In this document: positions 1 through 20,340 of the stretch, in pieces
Layout: every line of letters starts with the position of its first letter
How positions within the stretch are numbered: position 1 is the stretch's first letter
Source: a virus
DNA length: 20,340 bases
Reading direction: 5' to 3' (one strand)
Virus record (IMG/VR): IMGVR_UViG_3300045988_068454
Coordinates: 1 to 20,340 of that record
Made by a program: the position numbers and the translations under genes
Notes under the pieces: generated by a model
What the model was told of the DNA's origin: nothing
What the model saw: the letters and a program-made list of their open reading frames with translations, nothing else
Databases searched by the model: none

Positions 1-30
1 GTTAGGAATAAGAACAACGGGGGCGTGTAC
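1..30. repeat. Left inverted terminal repeat (30 bp)
   Basis: 1-30 GTTAGGAATAAGAACAACGGGGGCGTGTAC is the exact reverse complement of 20311-20340. Identity ends at position 31 (TGATG on the left versus CCCCC on the right). ITRs together with a protein-primed polymerase mark true genome ends. Confidence 0.97.
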
Positions 31-10656: not shown

Positions 10657-10663
10657 TAAATGG

Positions 10664-10692
10664 TTGACTTTGAACAGGGGTTGCGGTATAAT
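10664..10692 (+). promoter_or_regulatory. Consensus sigma-A/sigma-70 type promoter for the packaging ATPase gene
   Basis: TTGACT (10664-10669), a 17-nt spacer, then TATAAT (10687-10692). It faces away from the late promoter, with the two -10 elements about 35 bp apart. Confidence 0.7.
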
Positions 10693-10758
10693 ATTTATAG
10701 AAGGAACGTCCATTTCCGGAATGTTCCACATGGATCAAATTTTACGGGGTGTTATATT

Positions 10759-11793
10759 TTGGGAGATTTTTATGACGGCGCAAAGCTGCTTTCCCTGACG
10801 GATATCAACGGCAGCAAGCCAGAAATCTATATGTGCACTACCAACCGTAGTGGCGGCAAGACTACATGGTTTAACCGGTATTGTCTTAAACGCTTCATCA
10901 ACTACGGCGAAAAATTCATGCTACTGTATAGGTATAACTATGAACTGGATGACTGCGCTAACAAGTTCTTCAAGGACATTAGCGGACTGTTCTTTCCGGG
11001 TCATGAAATGACAGACCAGCGCAGAGCTAAAGGCATCTTCTATGAGCTGTTTCTGGATGGAGTTAACTGCGGATATGCAGTGAGCATCAACAGCGCAGAC
11101 CAGATTAAAAAATATTCACACTTCTTTTCTGACACTGTAAGAATGTTAATGGACGAGTTTCAGAGCGAGACAAACCACTACTGTGCAGACGAAGTTAAAA
11201 AGTTCAGGTCTGTGCACACATCTGTCGCGCGTGGTCAAGGCACTCAAAGTAGATACGTCCCTGTTTATATGCTGTCTAACCCTGTAACTTTACTGAACCC
11301 ATATTATGTTGCCATGAATATCAGCAGCAGACTTACAGACAATGTAAAGTTTCTGCGTGGTGAAGGCTGGGTTCTTGAGCAGGGCTATGTTGATGCTGCA
11401 TCTAAGGCACAGGCCAGTTCTGCTTTTAACAGAGCTTTTTCAGGTGACACCTATGACACGTATTTAACACAAGCTGTGTATCTGAACGACAGTTCTGCTT
11501 TTATCGAAAAGCCGGAAGGTAATTCAAGGTATCTGGGCACTCTTAGATACATGGGTAAAGAGTACGGACTGAGAGAGTTCGCGGACTCAGGTGTTATCTA
11601 CTGTGACGATAGACCTGATACTAGCTACAAGTTCAAACTGGCTGTAACTACTGACGACCATCGTGTGAACTATGTTATGCTGAAAAGCTATTCCATGTTC
11701 TTGGACAATATGCGGTATTACTTTGACCGTGGTGCGTTTAGGTTCAAGAACCTTATGTGCAAAGAGGTAATTCTCAAAGCACTGTCTTATTAA
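10759..11793 (+). CDS. DNA encapsidation (packaging) ATPase (phi29 gp16-like)
   Basis: Walker A is TNRSGGKTT and Walker B is RMLMDEF. Start proposed at TTG 10759, where GGGGTG lies 7 nt upstream. This gives 344 aa with the P-loop near residue 30, as in phi29 gp16. The ATG at 10660 in the ORF track has no RBS and lies upstream of the predicted -10 element. This is the only convincing plus-strand gene. Confidence 0.85.
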   Translation: MGDFYDGAKLLSLTDINGSKPEIYMCTTNRSGGKTTWFNRYCLKRFINYGEKFMLLYRYNYELDDCANKFFKDISGLFFPGHEMTDQRRAKGIFYELFLDGVNCGYAVSINSADQIKKYSHFFSDTVRMLMDEFQSETNHYCADEVKKFRSVHTSVARGQGTQSRYVPVYMLSNPVTLLNPYYVAMNISSRLTDNVKFLRGEGWVLEQGYVDAASKAQASSAFNRAFSGDTYDTYLTQAVYLNDSSAFIEKPEGNSRYLGTLRYMGKEYGLREFADSGVIYCDDRPDTSYKFKLAVTTDDHRVNYVMLKSYSMFLDNMRYYFDRGAFRFKNLMCKEVILKALSY

Positions 11794-17208: not shown

Positions 17209-17332
17209 TGCAGAATTGTTACAGTTGGGATAGACGATTGTCTCATTCGTGAAAAATTTAACAATCGGTATGCCCTCTGCAATTCTGTTCTAGGGTGGAA
17301 CTTTTAACAGATTCAGCATAGTTTTCAACTCC

Positions 17333-17399
17333 TTCTCGTGAGTAGTTCTCACGTTACGGCCCTGAACAGTGATGTTCAGAACCGTTGCCTGAGAATTAC
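17333..17399 (-). ncRNA. Unassigned structured RNA motif, copy 1 (R2 family)
   Basis: Sequence: GUAAUUCUCAGGCA-[ACGGUUCUGAAC-AUCACU-GUUCAGGGCCGU]-AA-[CGUGAG-AACUA-CUCACG]-AGAAGGAG. It begins at the stop codon of the upstream gene and ends at an RBS. Family-level covariation is described in the findings. Confidence 0.6.
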
Positions 17400-17686
17400 A
17401 GGTCAAATAACACCTCTAATTTGTGGTAGGTAAAGACGTCAAGCGGGTAATTGCTGCCATCCTTGACCACCCACACCGGAAGTCCTTCCTCAAGGGCGTA
17501 TTCCATTGCACGGATACATGATGGAAAAGTGTTTTCAGTGTCCGGATAAAATGAAATTTCCGGTTCATCGAACAGACGTTTGTCCATGCACCAGCGTGCG
17601 GACTGCACAACGGATACAGGGTATTGCTGACAAAGATAGTCAAACATCTTTGTTGCCAGTTCTCCGGCGTTCAAACGTGCGGACAT
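17396..17686 (-). CDS. Hypothetical early protein, 96 aa
   Basis: The ORF has a GGCGGTG-type RBS region and overlaps the upstream gene by 16 nt. No motif recognised. Confidence 0.6.
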   Translation of the reverse strand: MSARLNAGELATKMFDYLCQQYPVSVVQSARWCMDKRLFDEPEISFYPDTENTFPSCIRAMEYALEEGLPVWVVKDGSNYPLDVFTYHKLEVLFDL

Positions 17687-18038: not shown

Positions 18039-18051
18039 ATAAACACTCCTT

Positions 18052-18116
18052 TTCTCGCGGGTAGTTCCCACGTTACGGCCCTGAACCGGGTTCAGAGTCG
18101 TTGCCTGAGAATTACT
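18052..18116 (-). ncRNA. Unassigned structured RNA motif, copy 2 (R2 family)
   Basis: Sequence: GUAAUUCUCAGGCA-[ACGACUCUGAAC-CCG-GUUCAGGGCCGU]-AA-[CGUGGG-AACUA-CCCGCG]-AGAAAAGGAG. The A-to-G change in the 3' hairpin relative to copy 1 is compensated by a U-to-C change. Confidence 0.6.
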
Positions 18117-18207
18117 ACAAAACTGTTAATGTGTAACCAATGCAATCAGGGCGGTGGTCAAGCATTTTATCGGCTGCTGCAATGGCTATTCTATGAGTCG
18201 TATATTG

Positions 18208-18295: not shown

Positions 18296-18598
18296 TCATT
18301 CGTTCTTCAAGAACTCCCAAACCGTTTTACAACCAGCTGCCCTACGGTAACAAGCATAAGCTAATTCATACCTATTAAACCGCAAGTAAACTTCATCACC
18401 ATTATAAAATCCGGGTTCATACAGGTGAACTGTATAAACTTCACCCTCTGGATATTGCTCATTTACAAGCACACCACCAGTAGGAAGAAATTTTAAAACA
18501 GGCTCACCAGTGAGTTCACCCAAAAGACTGGTATGATTGAACTCTAAGTAATGGTTAATGCCGTCAATCGTTAAGGGCTTAATCTTTATAACCTTCAT
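18296..18598 (-). CDS. Hypothetical early protein, 100 aa
   Basis: Start moved to ATG 18598 (AAAGAGG 7 nt upstream). The MMGNQHSNAK... extension in the ORF track is read-through of hammerhead copy A and its leader. Confidence 0.7.
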   Translation of the reverse strand: MKVIKIKPLTIDGINHYLEFNHTSLLGELTGEPVLKFLPTGGVLVNEQYPEGEVYTVHLYEPGFYNGDEVYLRFNRYELAYACYRRAAGCKTVWEFLKNE

Positions 18599-18639
18599 GA
18601 TTATACCTCTTTTCTGTGTTCTGTCTTTGGCGTTACTGT

Positions 18640-18712
18640 GTTGGTTTCCCATCATCAGCGCACAAGTAACCAGCTTGTGCGGACAGGCATTGCTGCCTGT
18701 TTCGGGTTAACG
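18640..18712 (-). ncRNA. Type II hammerhead self-cleaving ribozyme, copy A
   Basis: GAAA is the complement of 18700-18703. Stem III is ACAGGCA-GCAA-UGCCUGU. The cleavage triplet is GUC, with C17 opposite 18682. Stem I is CGCACAAG-CUGGUUA-CUUGUGCG. CUGAUGA is the complement of 18652-18658. Stem II is CCC/GGG. Loop I UGGUU is complementary to the 3' tail AACCA. Confidence 0.85.
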
Positions 18713-18713
18713 A

Positions 18714-18968
18714 TTATAACCTCTTTTCTACCATATTCCAGCACCAATGCTGCACGGTGGTCAAGCCGTATGTATAATCAGCGGCAACTTTGTGCATTTC
18801 ATACTGAAAACTTTGAGAAGCGGTATTGGTAAACGTTGCCACAAGAGCATTGTTCATCTCGAGCTTATAGAAACTATAATCACTCCGCTGAACAAGCTGC
18901 AGTGAATCACCGTATACACTGTTAACATAGCGCCCATTCAGGCACTGGTCAATCTTAACCAATAGCAT
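18714..18968 (-). CDS. Hypothetical early protein, 84 aa
   Basis: ATG 18968 is preceded by the conserved leader and an AGAGG RBS. The stop lies 1 nt before hammerhead copy A. Confidence 0.7.
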   Translation of the reverse strand: MLLVKIDQCLNGRYVNSVYGDSLQLVQRSDYSFYKLEMNNALVATFTNTASQSFQYEMHKVAADYTYGLTTVQHWCWNMVEKRL

Positions 18969-19008
18969 ATTATACCTCTTTTCTGTGTTCTGTCTTTGGC
19001 GTTACTGT

Positions 19009-19081
19009 GTTGGTTTCCCATCATCAGCGCACAAGTAACCAGCTTGTACGGACAGGCATTGCTGCCTGTTTCGGGTTAACG
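19009..19081 (-). ncRNA. Type II hammerhead self-cleaving ribozyme, copy B
   Basis: Identical to copy A except for one stem I change (CGUACAAG), which turns a C-G pair into a U-G wobble. CUGAUGA is the complement of 19021-19027, GAAA of 19069-19072, and C17 lies opposite 19051. Its 5' edge overlaps the stop codon of the upstream gene. Confidence 0.85.
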
Positions 19082-19438
19082 AATTGCTTTGCCAACATTG
19101 ACATAATGCTCAAACATTTCGACCGCATTCAACATCAAGCCGTCAATCCAAATGTGCCCACCTACATCAGTATCACGGCACTGGAAATACAGGTTAGAGC
19201 CGATCAACTCTTGAGTGAAACGATTTACATGCCGGGCCGTTGTTTTGCTGCACCCAACATAATGTTCAATCAAAATATCAATTGCATCAGTTTCATCAGG
19301 CCCGACAGATACATTAAGAATGCAAGTGCTGTACGACCAAAGACGAATGTTGCGCAAGATACTAAAATCATCAACAATAAACTCAACGTGGCAGTTTGCA
19401 GCGGGCATAGAAATCATGTGATAGTTGTAGCTTTTCAT
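19076..19438 (-). CDS. Hypothetical early protein, 120 aa
   Basis: Start moved to ATG 19438 (GAGAGG 8 nt upstream). The MMGNHTDVPK... extension in the ORF track is hammerhead copy C plus its leader. Confidence 0.7.
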   Translation of the reverse strand: MKSYNYHMISMPAANCHVEFIVDDFSILRNIRLWSYSTCILNVSVGPDETDAIDILIEHYVGCSKTTARHVNRFTQELIGSNLYFQCRDTDVGGHIWIDGLMLNAVEMFEHYVNVGKAIR

Positions 19439-19477
19439 AATATTTACCTCTCTTGTTCTGTGTTTTGGCACGTCTGT

Positions 19478-19550
19478 GTGGTTTCCCATCATCAGCGCAC
19501 AAGTAACCAGCTTGTGCGGACAGGCATTGCTGCCTGTTTCGGGATTAAAT
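19478..19550 (-). ncRNA. Type II hammerhead self-cleaving ribozyme, copy C
   Basis: The core and stems I and III are the same as in copy A. CUGAUGA is the complement of 19489-19495, GAAA of 19537-19540, and C17 lies opposite 19519. The 5' flank differs (AAUCCC), which allows a fourth stem II pair (U-A). The downstream leader has diverged. Confidence 0.85.
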
Positions 19551-19778
19551 GAGGTGCAGTGTGTAGTTCATATTTACACAGCCGGAATGCTTGCAGGACG
19601 CGTGCAAATTGCGAACGTCACCGACCGAAACCACATTATAACCGGAATACAAAAGCCAGCGCGGTGTGTCAAACTTGTCGTCAATAACCAATTTGTCGCC
19701 CCAAAGTTGGCAGATGTAGGATTCTGTCTTACCAATAATGGAATCATGGATAGCGGTAACAACAATGTTGTAAGTCAT
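19545..19778 (-). CDS. Hypothetical early protein, 77 aa (first gene of the early operon)
   Basis: Start moved to ATG 19778 (AAAGAGGAA 7 nt upstream). The stop codon abuts hammerhead copy C. Confidence 0.65.
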   Translation of the reverse strand: MTYNIVVTAIHDSIIGKTESYICQLWGDKLVIDDKFDTPRWLLYSGYNVVSVGDVRNLHASCKHSGCVNMNYTLHLI

Positions 19779-19808
19779 AATAGTTCCTCTTTTCTTTGTT
19801 ATGTACAT

Positions 19809-19893
19809 TCGTGGTATTCCCACGTTGCAATGCACGACATTCAGCACCAATTTACCGGCTGCCTATTGTCATGCACTGCTGCCTAAGAATACG
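19809..19893 (-). ncRNA. Unassigned structured RNA motif, copy 3 (R2 family, divergent helix)
   Basis: Sequence: GUAUUCUUAGGCA-[GCAGUGCAUGAC-29 nt loop-GUCGUGCAUUGC]-AA-[CGUGG-GAAUA-CCACG]. The junction nucleotides match copies 1 and 2, but the 12-bp helix has an entirely different sequence. Confidence 0.55.
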
Positions 19894-20039
19894 CAACAGA
19901 ATAGAAGTGTTTTCAATATTCAGTTGTCAAGGTACGTTGATTGCTTGTTGGATTGAAAGCCGGTGAACGTCTCGACCATGCTACCACGTGCCATGCCCAT
20001 CGACCTTGCTACCGGGCTTTTGGCTTTAGCTCCCCATTT

Positions 20040-20068
20040 ATTGTACCACACTCTGTGTGGTTTGTCAA
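20040..20068 (-). promoter_or_regulatory. Strong early promoter (TTGACA, 17-nt spacer, TACAAT, TG-extended)
   Basis: The minus strand reads CTCTTGACA-AACCACACAGAGTGTGG-TACAAT-AAATGG. The spacer contains the perfect inverted repeat CCACAC-AGA-GTGTGG. Confidence 0.75.
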
Positions 20069-20152
20069 GAGGTTTTTTCTTGAGCTTTGCGGTGTGGACT
20101 TACCAGCTGCCTTACCACGTTCACTCTTGAACGTCCCTATTTTGACACCCTT

Positions 20153-20163
20153 ATTATACCATA
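20153..20163 (-). promoter_or_regulatory. Upstream early promoter candidate (TG-extended TATAAT)
   Basis: The minus strand reads GACATATGGTATAATAAGGG. It has a perfect extended -10 element but no properly spaced -35. It lies about 110 bp upstream of the consensus early promoter. Confidence 0.5.
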
Positions 20164-20310
20164 TGTCAAGCCCCATTGCAACCCCCTACAGCAAATATAC
20201 TTGCATGTGTGCATCGATCTGTACTAGCATGCGTGGCACGTTGTATACTACAGGCGCCCCTGTGACAGTGCAAGCTTGGATACAACGCTACCACTGTACG
20301 TTGTGGGGGG

Positions 20311-20340
20311 GTACACGCCCCCGTTGTTCTTATTCCTAAC
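20311..20340. repeat. Right inverted terminal repeat (30 bp)
   Basis: Exact reverse complement of 1-30. Confidence 0.97.

What the first reader, a model, noticed from the sequence alone, without database searches (positions are those of the whole stretch)
18640..19550. Three type II hammerhead ribozymes between consecutive early genes
On the transcribed (minus) strand the same ~73-nt element occurs three times: 18640-18712, 19009-19081 and 19478-19550. It reads CCC-GAAA-CAGGCA-GCAA-UGCCUG-UC|CGCACAAG-CUGGUUA-CUUGUGCG-CUGAUGA-U-GGGAAACCA.

Every invariant hammerhead core position is present, in the order expected for a stem-II-open (type II) ribozyme:
- G12 A13 A14.
- An A15.1:U16.1 pair closing a 7-bp stem III with a GNRA loop.
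- C17 in a GUC triplet.
- An 8-bp stem I hairpin.
- C3 U4 G5 A6 U7 G8 A9.

The two ends form a short CCC/GGG stem II. Loop I UGGUU is complementary to AACCA just 3' of stem II, which is the kind of loop/tail pseudoknot described for type II hammerheads.

The only helix substitution among copies (stem I of copy B) turns C-G into U-G, so pairing is kept. Each copy begins within a few nt of, or overlapping, the stop codon of the upstream gene.

Clusters of hammerheads in phage-like contexts are known from comparative genomics (Perreault et al. 2011). Here they sit in a complete, very small protein-primed phage genome, where their role in chopping a polycistronic early mRNA can be tested directly.

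One deviation from the consensus: an extra U lies between A9 and the first G of stem II.
Basis: partly seen in the sequence, partly recalled or inferred. Interest (0 to 1): 0.9.

Follow-up and report, generated by a model that had tools for sequence, protein, structure and literature searches.

The report
Three hammerhead ribozymes punctuating phage early genes
A small phi29-like phage from gut-type metagenomes carries three genuine type II hammerhead self-cleaving RNAs, one after each of three consecutive small early genes; this arrangement is already known from other phages, but here a second, undescribed RNA motif takes the hammerhead's place in sister genomes.

Summary
Three near-identical type II hammerheads lie on the minus strand: 18706-18642, 19075-19011 and 19543-19479. 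Rfam Hammerhead_II scores them 39.0, 37.1 and 36.0 bits against a gathering score of 37.

A family model found 51 copies in related phage contigs. All three stems and the loop I/tail pseudoknot covary, and the catalytic core is essentially invariant. The extra U after A9 is conserved across the family. It is a tolerated, previously allowed variation.

The window is a complete phi29-like genome with 30-nt inverted terminal repeats and a protein-primed polymerase. The ribozymes sit in the promoter-proximal operon. Each starts 0-7 nt after a stop codon and lies about 40 nt before the next ribosome-binding site.

The most likely function is co-transcriptional self-cleavage into single-gene mRNAs. 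The upstream piece would end in the stem III hairpin and the downstream piece would begin with the stem I hairpin.

Clustered hammerheads flanking small phage ORFs were described and shown to cleave by Perreault et al. 2011, so this is a new member of a known kind.

What is new:
- The phi29-like context.
- The strict abutment to stop codons.
- A second pseudoknotted RNA, "element X", which replaces the hammerhead at the same gene junction in sister genomes and has no Rfam match.

No cleavage was tested.

The parts
18642..18706 (-). Hammerhead A (type II). Stem II 5' strand 18706-18704; GAAA 18703-18700; stem III hairpin 18700-18683; C17 at 18682 with the predicted cut between 18682 and 18681; stem I hairpin 18681-18659; CUGAUGA 18658-18652; extra U 18651; stem II 3' strand 18650-18648; pseudoknot tail AACCA 18646-18642.
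   Evidence: Rfam RF02276 39.0 bits; family model R1 91.9 bits; sequence.
19011..19075 (-). Hammerhead B (type II). C17 at 19051, predicted cut between 19051 and 19050. The stop codon TAA of gene 2 (19078-19076) abuts stem II directly.
   Evidence: Rfam 37.1 bits; R1 90.9 bits; sequence.
19479..19543 (-). Hammerhead C (type II). C17 at 19519, predicted cut between 19519 and 19518. The stop codon TAA of gene 1 (19547-19545) lies 1 nt before stem II.
   Evidence: Rfam 36.0 bits, 1 bit below the gathering score; R1 86.6 bits; sequence.
18599..18641 (-). Leader after hammerhead A: A-rich, predicted unpaired, with Shine-Dalgarno AAGAGGU before ATG 18598. The equivalent leaders are 18969-19010 (after B) and 19439-19478 (after C). 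Hammerhead plus leader forms the 114-nt repeat.
   Evidence: Repeat family D1; folds of the 3' products show the SD region open.
19545..19778 (-). Gene 1, about 77 aa from the ATG, no family match. It lies upstream of hammerhead C.
   Evidence: ORF list; Pfam and PHROGs empty; ORF cluster g8.
19076..19438 (-). Gene 2, 120 aa, flanked by hammerheads C and B. This is the gene family most tightly linked to the ribozymes in relatives. The ORF list extends it to 19492 because an in-frame AUG lies inside CUGAUGAUG.
   Evidence: 85 homologues, many of them on contigs of about 17-21 kb. AlphaFold pLDDT 94 with no PDB fold match.
18714..18968 (-). Gene 3, 84 aa, between hammerheads B and A, no family match.
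18296..18598 (-). Gene 4, 100 aa, downstream of hammerhead A. It has no homologue among the ORFs compared in the related loci, and none was found in IMG/VR.
20040..20181 (-). Two sigma-70-like promoter matches: TTGCAA-17-TATAAT at 20181-20153 and TTGACA-17-TACAAT at 20068-20040, both with an extended TG. They could drive leftward transcription through the hammerhead region.
   Evidence: Consensus scan only; not evidence of function.
19802..19903 (-). Element X', a divergent copy in the 5' untranslated region of gene 1.
   Evidence: R2 26 bits, E 3e-5 with filters off. The pseudoknot GUAUUCU/GGAAUAC is kept through a matched 1-nt shortening of both strands.
18040..18125 (-). Element X1, a pseudoknotted RNA motif directly before the SD and ATG of the next gene.
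17323..17409 (-). Element X2. Its 5' strand contains the stop codon of ORF 17396-17686. It is followed by an SD and a 9-codon ORF (17319-17290).
1..30 (.). Left inverted terminal repeat. Its partner is 20311-20340. This marks a complete linear genome.
   Evidence: 100% complementary 30-nt arms at the two ends.

Best explanation
The three elements are active type II hammerhead ribozymes in the promoter-proximal (early) operon of a phi29-like phage.

Proposed mechanism:
1. As RNA polymerase moves leftward from promoters near the right end, each hammerhead folds. It forms a 3-bp stem II, closed stems I and III, and a loop I/tail pseudoknot that holds stems I and II parallel.
2. It cleaves itself after C17. 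This gives a 2',3'-cyclic phosphate on the upstream piece and a 5'-OH on the downstream piece.
3. Each hammerhead starts at the stop codon of the upstream gene, so that gene keeps its stop codon and ends 25 nt later in the 7-bp stem III hairpin.
4. The downstream piece begins with the 8-bp stem I hairpin, still locked to its tail by the pseudoknot. An open, A-rich leader of about 40 nt with a strong ribosome-binding site follows.

Only the type II topology leaves a hairpin on both sides of the cut. The result is a set of single-gene mRNAs whose ends are shielded from 3' and 5' exonucleases, so their lifetimes and translation are uncoupled from one another.

Shown here: the hammerhead identity, the structure, its conservation and its position. 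Inferred: cleavage in vivo, the fate of the ends and the benefit to the phage.
For: Identity:
- Rfam Hammerhead_II full-length matches at 39.0, 37.1 and 36.0 bits.
- All invariant core positions are present.

Structure:
- 51 copies in 38 loci.
- 95.2% of cells pair, against 29-40% for slid controls.
- 19 of 23 pairs change on both sides.
- Stem II occurs as CCC/GGG, GCC/GGC and GUC/GAC.
- The pseudoknot occurs as UGGUU/AACCA, ACGAC/GUCGU and UGGC/GCCA.

Selection on catalysis: core positions hold in 47-50 of 50 distinct copies while the helices turn over.

Placement:
- In 38 of the 42 phi29-type copies with a recognisable upstream ORF the stop codon ends 0-1 nt before stem II, and in the other four 2-7 nt before it. 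The start codon follows the model end by 21-42 nt in most of them.
- All flanking genes are on the same strand, downstream of two promoter-like sites, with no convincing terminator in between.

Products: folds of the 3' pieces put stem I at the very 5' end and leave the SD unpaired.

Precedent:
- Clustered hammerheads flanking genes in prophages cleave in vitro, and the A. tumefaciens triple (flanking ardA) also cleaves in E. coli. The authors proposed processing into single-gene mRNAs (PMC3088659).
- Disrupting the type II pseudoknot lowers the cleavage rate 20- to >100-fold.

Interchange: at the junction before gene 2, sister genomes carry either a hammerhead or element X. This argues for a job done at that junction rather than for a sequence relic.
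Against: - No cleavage assay or transcript data exist for this phage.
- The phage is uncultured and its host is unknown. The nearest cultured relatives infect Clostridium symbiosum.
- Hammerhead number ranges from 0 to 3 per genome within one clade. The cultured relatives have none. The elements are therefore dispensable.
- The extra U after A9 departs from the textbook core. An extra A at this site lowers the rate moderately in a viroid hammerhead (PMC1636495).
- In Bacillus, a 5'-OH end can attract RNase J1 (glmS precedent, from memory), so protection by stem I is an assumption.
- Perreault et al. could not establish the purpose of such clusters either.
Confidence: 0.75

Rival explanations
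1. Translation-coupled switch rather than constitutive scissors. The stop codon abuts stem II, so a terminating ribosome would cover stem II and half of stem III. Cleavage, or refolding of the downstream leader, would then be gated by how heavily the upstream gene is translated.
For: The stop codon ends 0-2 nt before stem II in almost all phi29-type copies. In element X the stop codon (UAA or UGA) lies inside the pseudoknot strand. The same positional rule therefore holds for two unrelated structures.
Against: Tight packing in a 20-kb genome explains the abutment equally well. Placing the cut after the stop codon is also simply what avoids stop-less mRNAs. Hammerhead cleavage is fast and irreversible, so occlusion by ribosomes would delay rather than prevent it. 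Nothing here was tested.
Confidence: 0.12
2. Recombination and cassette boundaries. On this view the conserved hammerhead-plus-leader repeats matter mainly as DNA, serving as homology patches where small early genes are swapped or added. The RNA activity would be incidental.
For: Copies A and B share a 114-nt unit at 99% identity. Homology between the window and its closest relatives breaks and resumes at hammerhead and X modules. The cassette 'hammerhead A plus gene 4' is present only in the window. Public short contigs break inside X and just after a hammerhead.
Against: DNA homology alone does not explain the compensatory base changes in four helices, or an invariant catalytic core across copies whose stems have diverged. 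Shuffling is most simply a by-product of having repeats.
Confidence: 0.06
3. Circular or spliced RNA. An RNA excised between two hammerheads carries a 5'-OH and a cyclic phosphate. Its two ends could rebuild a hybrid hammerhead and ligate, giving a circular mRNA of gene 2 or gene 3.
For: Stem II strands of neighbouring copies are identical in the window. They remain compatible (G-C or G-U) in the five relatives with two different hammerheads (rows). Hammerheads catalyse ligation in viroid-like RNAs (PMC7761336, listed).
Against: Perreault et al. looked for spliced or circular products from such clusters and found none. Stem II is only 3 bp and the observed diversity is too low to test compatibility. 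Many genomes have a single hammerhead.
Confidence: 0.04
4. Decayed or inactive hammerhead-like relics that no longer cleave.
For: The extra U after A9. Copy C falls 1 bit under the Rfam gathering score. Some relatives carry clearly damaged copies: an internal deletion in L044, a truncated copy in L034, C3U in L068 and U4C in L069.
Against: The three window copies have intact cores. The extra U is present in 49 of 50 family members, so it is a conserved feature and not damage. An 8-nt CUGANGA+N strand was part of the 2011 type II search descriptor. Damaged copies are the exception.
Confidence: 0.03

Closest known systems
Rfam RF02276 Hammerhead_II, the type II hammerheads with a loop I/3'-tail pseudoknot (Perreault et al. 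2011, PMC3088659)
   Same: Same core, same permutation (stem II open, stems I and III capped), short stem II, and a pseudoknot of 4-5 bp between loop I and the nucleotides just 3' of stem II.
   Different: One extra U between A9 and G10.1, conserved in the whole subfamily. The Rfam model scores it as an insertion, which puts the scores at the gathering threshold. The 2011 RNAMotif descriptor already allowed it.
Clustered hammerheads flanking genes in prophages (Clostridium scindens, Azorhizobium caulinodans, Agrobacterium tumefaciens ardA cluster; PMC3088659; reviewed in PMC6155905)
   Same: Two or three hammerheads within about 1 kb bracket single small genes of unknown or anti-host function on one transcript. 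The proposed role is cutting a polycistronic phage RNA.
   Different: Here the host is a complete 20.3-kb protein-primed phi29-like virion genome, not a prophage. All three copies are type II and near-identical. Each starts at the stop codon. No cleavage data exist here, whereas those clusters were shown to cleave.
HHphage in haloviruses HF1/HF2 (PMC3088659)
   Same: A hammerhead in the early region of a linear dsDNA virus, just upstream of an early gene. There a mapped 5' end lies within 3 nt of the cleavage site.
   Different: A single copy, a variant core with insertions near C3, an archaeal host and dependence on high salt.
RNase III processing sites between the early genes of phage T7 (from general knowledge, not checked here)
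   Same: Intercistronic structured RNAs in an early operon whose cleavage yields single-gene mRNAs that end in a stabilising hairpin.
   Different: T7 uses a host protein enzyme; the hammerheads need none. Element X, an interrupted hairpin of 8 + 12 bp with a conserved internal loop, looks more like a T7-type site than the hammerheads do.
CChMVd (+) hammerhead with an extra A10 between A9 and G10.1 (De la Pena and Flores 2001, as cited in PMC1636495)
   Same: A natural, active hammerhead with one inserted nucleotide at exactly this position.
   Different: A type III viroid ribozyme, and the inserted base is A. That a U at this site raises the rate is my recollection of the 2001 abstract. The paper was not available.

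Membership tests
Hammerhead ribozyme, type II (RF02276) | Conserved strand C3 U4 G5 A6 N7 G8 A9 | tested here: met
   CUGAUGA in all three copies. Holds in 48-50 of 50 distinct relatives.
Hammerhead ribozyme, type II (RF02276) | G12 A13 A14, followed by the A15.1-U16.1 pair that opens stem III | tested here: met
   GAAA...U in all three copies; invariant in 50 of 50.
Hammerhead ribozyme, type II (RF02276) | Cleavage-site nucleotide 17 is not G (NUH triplet) | tested here: met
   GUC in all three copies. Relatives have C in 47 and A in 3.
Hammerhead ribozyme, type II (RF02276) | Three helices around the core, in type II order: open stem II, capped stems III and I | tested here: met
   Stem II 100% paired with 2 of 3 pairs covarying. 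Stem III 99.4% paired with 6 of 7 covarying. Stem I 96.3% paired with 8 of 8 covarying. The alignment was fitted to this structure, so the percentages lean towards it; slid controls give 29-40%.
Hammerhead ribozyme, type II (RF02276) | [quoted passage not shown] | tested here: met
   UGGUU/AACCA in the window. Three of 5 pairs change on both sides in relatives, although the pseudoknot was not in the search model.
Hammerhead ribozyme, type II (RF02276) | G10.1-C11.1 directly follows A9 (canonical core spacing) | tested here: not met
   An extra U separates A9 from G10.1 in all three copies and in 49 of 50 relatives. Stem II covariation fits only the bulged-U register. This is a known tolerated variation, so I do not treat it as excluding membership.
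Hammerhead ribozyme, type II (RF02276) | Score at or above Rfam's curated gathering threshold (37 bits) | tested here: inconclusive
   39.0 and 37.1 bits pass; 36.0 bits (copy C) falls 1 bit short. Only copy A was listed in gathering mode.
Hammerhead ribozyme, type II (RF02276) | Site-specific self-cleavage giving a 2',3'-cyclic phosphate and a 5'-OH | not testable with these tools
   Needs in vitro transcription or end-specific RNA sequencing.
Clustered phage hammerheads that process polycistronic mRNA (Perreault 2011) | Two or more hammerheads on one strand within about 2 kb, bracketing genes of a phage | tested here: met
   Three copies spaced 369 and 468 nt apart, bracketing genes of 84 and 120 aa in a phi29-like genome.
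Clustered phage hammerheads that process polycistronic mRNA (Perreault 2011) | All copies lie on one primary transcript | tested here: inconclusive
   Promoter-like sites lie only upstream (20181-20040) and no good terminator lies between them and 18296. These are consensus scans, not transcript data.
Pistol, hatchet, twister, twister-sister and HDV-like ribozymes (considered for element X) | Match to the family covariance model | tested here: not met
   No ribozyme family matches X at E up to 10 in permissive scans of 2.3 kb and 1.5 kb. By inspection X has no internal loop in its long hairpin, and the order of its parts differs from pistol.

The most novel reading that the evidence does not exclude
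Element X may be a previously undescribed self-cleaving ribozyme that does the same job as the hammerhead.

Window copies lie at 19903-19802, 18125-18040 and 17409-17323 on the minus strand. There are 2-4 copies in most relatives whose early region was captured, across the clade with 79-98% polymerase identity.

Its parts, in order:
- a 5' strand holding the stop codon
- invariant AGG
- a 12-bp hairpin
- invariant AA
- a CGUG/CACG hairpin whose loop pairs back to the 5' strand

A cut in the AA linker would, like a type II hammerhead, leave a hairpin on each new end.

The main evidence is that X and the hammerhead alternate at the same junction between homologous genes in sister phages. That kind of association is how pistol, hatchet and twister-sister were found.

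A host RNase III site of the T7 type, or an exonuclease-blocking 5' cap, would fit the data at least as well.
Probability: 0.2. Interest if true: 0.85.

Novelty: new member of a known kind. Interest (0 to 1): 0.45.

Why it matters
What bacterial and phage hammerheads are for is still called an open question (PMC6155905, PMC6765202).

This phage family offers a compact natural comparison. The genomes are about 20 kb and closely related. The same early-gene junction carries a hammerhead, element X, or neither, and hammerhead number runs from 0 to 3.

The type II topology also suggests a concrete reason to prefer it in mRNAs: both cleavage products end in a hairpin. That idea can be tested with reporter constructs and by measuring the half-lives of the pieces.

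The practical limit is that the phage is known only from metagenomes, and its nearest cultured relatives lack the ribozymes. The hammerheads themselves add a new host lineage (phi29-like, protein-primed) but no new principle.

Tried and rejected
- **Known phage records:** megablast of the whole window against 50,697 records gave no match. A protein search with the polymerase found the nearest records at 54-59% identity (human faecal phages; Clostridium phages CS229P1-P3). I scanned two of the faecal-phage genomes and CS229P1 with R1 and Rfam and found no hammerhead.
- **Function of the flanked genes:** Pfam and PHROGs are empty for genes 1-4. Gene 2 has 85 homologues, none with an informative name. 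A precomputed PF26096 label on some of them could not be reproduced with the Pfam copy at hand. Its AlphaFold model is confident (pLDDT 94), but the best PDB fold match has E = 0.56. Gene 4 has no relative in IMG/VR.
- **Other ribozymes:** a permissive Rfam scan of the whole window found none.
- **In vivo cleavage from public assemblies:** two contigs of about 535 nt from different samples start and end at the same places. They are metagenome contigs that break inside X and just after a hammerhead, so these are assembly breaks at repeats, not RNA ends.
- **Alternative register for the extra U:** reading it as a U10.1·C11.1 mismatch fails in relatives with GCC/GGC and GUC/GAC stems.
- **Leader promoter matches:** AAGACA-16-TATAAT inside the leaders after hammerheads A and B scores as promoter-like. 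It overlaps the ribosome-binding site and would start transcription at or beyond the start codon, so I read it as chance.
- **Literature:** the De la Pena and Flores 2001 paper on the extra core nucleotide is not held. A search for hammerheads natural to phi29-like phages returned only pRNA nanotechnology papers.
Full report
**What is there**

On the minus strand the window carries three copies of one element.
- Copy A spans 18706-18642.
- Copy B spans 19075-19011.
- Copy C spans 19543-19479.

Each copy reads: CCC, GAAA, a 7-bp stem III closed by GCAA, GUC, an 8-bp stem I with loop CUGGUUA, CUGAUGA, one extra U, GGG, AA, ACCA. The predicted cuts after C17 fall at 18682|18681, 19051|19050 and 19519|19518.

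The repeat finder shows that the repeated unit is 114 nt. It is the ribozyme plus a leader of about 40 nt and the ribosome-binding site. Copies A and B are 99% identical, and copy C is 75% identical.

**Is it a hammerhead?**

Rfam's Hammerhead_II model (RF02276) aligns end to end with all three copies. Scores are 39.0, 37.1 and 36.0 bits against a gathering score of 37. E-values are 6.5e-5 to 4.1e-4 for the whole window against all 4227 families. The scores sit at the threshold because the model treats the 'ug' after CUGAUGA as an insertion.

Stronger evidence comes from relatives. A DNA pattern scan and a polymerase-based scan of IMG/VR returned about 100 loci. A motif scan found type II hammerheads in 33 sources (32 fetched loci plus the window), with different stems. 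I built a covariance model from 20 of them (R1). It found 51 strong copies in 38 loci.

Counts on that alignment:
- 95.2% of cells form standard pairs, against 29-40% when the partners are slid by 1-3 columns.
- 19 of 23 pairs change on both sides.
- Stem II occurs as CCC/GGG, GCC/GGC and GUC/GAC.
- The loop I/tail pseudoknot occurs as UGGUU/AACCA, ACGAC/GUCGU and UGGC/GCCA. It was not part of the model, yet it covaries at 3 of 5 pairs.

One caveat applies. The alignment was fitted to the nested helices, so the percentages lean that way.

The catalytic positions barely vary. G12, A13, A14, A15.1, U16.1, G5 and A9 are the same in 50 of 50 distinct copies. C3, U4, A6 and G8 hold in 48-49. Position 17 is C in 47 and A in 3.

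**The extra U**

It is present in 49 of 50 copies. The exception is a truncated copy. Only the bulged-U register lets stem II pair in the GCC/GGC and GUC/GAC variants.

There are two precedents. A natural active hammerhead with an inserted nucleotide at this very site is known: A10 of the CChMVd (+) hammerhead, described in PMC1636495. The type II RNAMotif descriptor of Perreault et al. allowed a 7- or 8-nt strand beginning CUGANGA.

The deviation is therefore real and conserved in this subfamily, but it is not new in kind.

**Context**

The window is a complete linear genome with perfect 30-nt inverted terminal repeats. It encodes:
- a protein-primed family B polymerase, a phi29-type major capsid protein, connector, tail knob, an M23 peptidase tail protein and the gp16 packaging ATPase;
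- a phi29-type SSB.

The nearest records are human faecal phages and Clostridium symbiosum phages, at 54-59% polymerase identity. A gut Clostridia host is therefore likely but unproven.

Almost all genes are on the minus strand. Two good sigma-70-like matches sit near the right end, at 20181-20153 and 20068-20040, and no convincing terminator follows before 18296. The order along the transcript is:

promoters, X', gene 1, hammerhead C, gene 2, hammerhead B, gene 3, hammerhead A, gene 4, a 180-nt gap, X1, three small genes, X2, a mini-ORF, a 110-aa gene, SSB, the gene in the terminal-protein position, polymerase.

'Early' is an inference from this layout.

**Placement rule**

In 38 of the 42 phi29-type copies with a recognisable upstream ORF, that ORF's stop codon ends 0-1 nt before the first base of stem II. 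In the other four it ends 2-7 nt before it. The next start codon lies 21-42 nt after the end of the model in most of them. In the window the gaps are 1, 0 and 7 nt.

Two of the three downstream ORFs are over-extended by ORF callers, because an AUG inside CUGAUGAUG happens to be in frame.

**How it most likely works**

The sequence supports a three-helix hammerhead that folds on the nascent transcript and cuts after C17. What follows is inference.

The ribozyme begins at the stop codon, so the upstream message keeps its stop and ends in the stem III hairpin with one extra nucleotide. The downstream message starts with the first base of the stem I hairpin. Folding of the 3' products puts stem I at the extreme 5' end and leaves the A-rich leader and the Shine-Dalgarno sequence unpaired.

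Of the three hammerhead permutations, only type II has closed hairpins on both sides of the scissile bond. It therefore gives both products a structured terminus. Terminal hairpins are known stabilisers against 3' exonucleases and against RNase J1 in Firmicutes (general knowledge, not tested here).

The outcome would be single-gene early mRNAs with independent lifetimes. This is the self-contained counterpart of the RNase III cuts between the early genes of T7.

**Variation among relatives**

Hammerhead number per genome runs from 0 to 3, and the window has the most seen. Gene 2's family is the one most often bracketed: it lies downstream of a hammerhead in 12 cases and upstream of one in 26.

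The closest relatives (94-98% polymerase identity) have two hammerheads. The window's third copy comes with gene 4, which has no homologue in the loci compared or in IMG/VR, and with a leader 99% identical to that of copy B. This points to a recent duplication or cassette gain.

Homology between genomes breaks and resumes at these modules.

A few relatives carry damaged copies:
- an internal deletion in L044
- a truncated copy at L034:5-74
- C3U in L068
- U4C in L069

The elements are thus maintained by selection but are not indispensable.

**The second motif, element X**

A second repeat, first seen as families D2 and D4, proved to be a conserved RNA. In order, it has:
- a 5' strand GUAAUUCY that contains the upstream stop codon;
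- YAGGC;
- a 12-bp hairpin with a conserved CCUG/CAGGG segment;
- AA;
- a CGUG/CRCG hairpin whose 7-8-nt loop pairs back to the 5' strand;
- GAGAA and the Shine-Dalgarno sequence.

A model built from nine copies (R2) found 2-4 copies in most genomes of the 79-98% clade whose early region was captured. In that alignment 98.1% of cells pair, and 13 of 20 pairs change on both sides.

The long-range pairing covaries through at least five forms:
- GUAAUUUC/GAAAUUAC
- GUAAUUCC/GGAAUUAC
- GAUAUCC/GGAUAUC
- UAAUUCA/UGAAUUA
- GUAUUCU/GGAAUAC

The unpaired AGG and AA are invariant in 85 of 85 distinct copies. The CGUG/CACG helix never varies on both sides, so it is unsupported by covariation.

No Rfam family matches X, even in permissive scans of short stretches. 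A pattern scan of IMG/VR found it only in this phage clade: 42 contigs, all but one of 18-21 kb.

**Why X matters for the hammerheads**

At the junction between the gene 1 family and the gene 2 family, 13 of the related genomes compared carry a hammerhead, as does the window, and about 24 carry X. The junction after gene 2 shows the same alternation in a few genomes. The flanking genes are homologous, but only about 55-60% identical in DNA. These are therefore old alternatives, not a recent swap.

Two unrelated structured RNAs in the same slot, both starting at the stop codon and both followed by a ribosome-binding site, argue that the slot has a function at the RNA level.

X could be a self-cleaving ribozyme, a T7-style RNase III site (two helices around a conserved internal loop), or a block to 5' exonucleases. 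I cannot tell which.

**Comparison with what is known**

Perreault et al. 2011 reported that multiple hammerheads often flank single genes or short blocks in prophages. They showed cleavage of three such clusters in vitro, and of the A. tumefaciens cluster also in E. coli. They proposed processing into single-gene mRNAs and found no spliced or circular products.

A 2017 review repeats that hammerheads flank small, non-conserved ORFs and are persistently linked to phages, and that their role is open. A 2019 review says the same about processing of polycistronic transcripts.

The present case fits this picture and adds a host lineage. I found no report of natural hammerheads in phi29-like phages.

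**Verdict**

- Novelty: a new member of a known kind.
- Interest: moderate (0.45). It comes mainly from the natural hammerhead/X/none series and from the undescribed motif X, not from the hammerheads alone.

Noticed in passing
window 19903-19802, 18125-18040, 17409-17323 (minus strand); e.g. L055:533-615, 996-1079, 1258-1343, 1901-1985: Element X is an undescribed pseudoknotted intercistronic RNA of about 85 nt. It has invariant unpaired AGG and AA, a covarying 12-bp hairpin and a covarying long-range helix that contains the upstream stop codon. There are 2-4 copies in most genomes of this phage clade whose early region was captured, it has no Rfam match, and it alternates with the hammerhead at the same gene junction.
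   Followed up: partly
window 18296-18713 compared with L024:1243-1360 and L025:1158-1560: The cassette 'hammerhead A + leader + gene 4' is present only in the window. Its hammerhead and leader are 99% identical to copy B. Homology with the closest relatives breaks and resumes at hammerhead and X modules, so early-gene shuffling appears to happen at these repeats.
   Followed up: partly
L001:2291-2371, L002:118-200, L005:947-1030, L010:8707-8789, L011:14055-14135, L023:4094-4174; also L014 and L018: The same hammerhead subtype (CUGAUGA-U-GGGAAACCA, stem III of 10-12 bp) occurs in contigs of 165-219 kb (jumbo-phage size; L006, a 40-kb contig, carries the same copy as L005) and in contigs of 38-71 kb. 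In the contigs where a downstream ORF could be read (L001, L005, L010, L011) it lies 33-34 nt before a 45-46-aa hydrophobic ORF. These hits are biased by the search pattern used.
   Followed up: no
L044:999-1083; L034:5-74; L068:895-966; L069:1004-1075: Damaged hammerheads in relatives. L044 has an internal deletion between two ACAAG repeats that removes stem I 3' and CUGAUGA. L034 has a copy lacking the CUGAUGA strand. L068 carries C3U and L069 carries U4C.
   Followed up: no
window 19076-19438 (minus strand): Gene 2, the gene most tightly bracketed by hammerheads, belongs to a family many of whose members lie on contigs of about 17-21 kb. Its invariant residues include the motif S-x-T-T-A-R-H-V-N-R-F-T-x-E. 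The predicted fold is confident (pLDDT 94) with no significant PDB match.
   Followed up: partly
window 18655 and 19492 (minus strand): The AUGs inside CUGAUGAUG are in frame with the downstream genes after copies A and C. Mechanical ORF calls (119 and 138 aa) therefore swallow half of the ribozyme, whereas the likely starts with a ribosome-binding site are 18598 and 19438.
   Followed up: yes
window 10660-11793 (+ strand) and the whole window: The gp16-type packaging ATPase is the only sizeable gene on the plus strand, as in Clostridium phage CS229P1. No prohead RNA (pRNA) match was found by Rfam anywhere in the window, so a pRNA, if there is one, is too diverged to detect.
   Followed up: no
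window 17319-17290 (minus strand): Element X2 is followed by a good Shine-Dalgarno sequence and an ORF of only 9 codons (MLNLLKVPP) before the next real gene. This may be a leader peptide or a remnant.
   Followed up: no
L144 (ERZ15185572) and L145 (ERZ28615619): Two metagenome contigs of 540 and 531 nt from different samples have identical boundaries. They start inside X and end just after a hammerhead, with a gene 2 homologue between. This shows that these repeats fragment short-read assemblies of this phage clade.
   Followed up: yes
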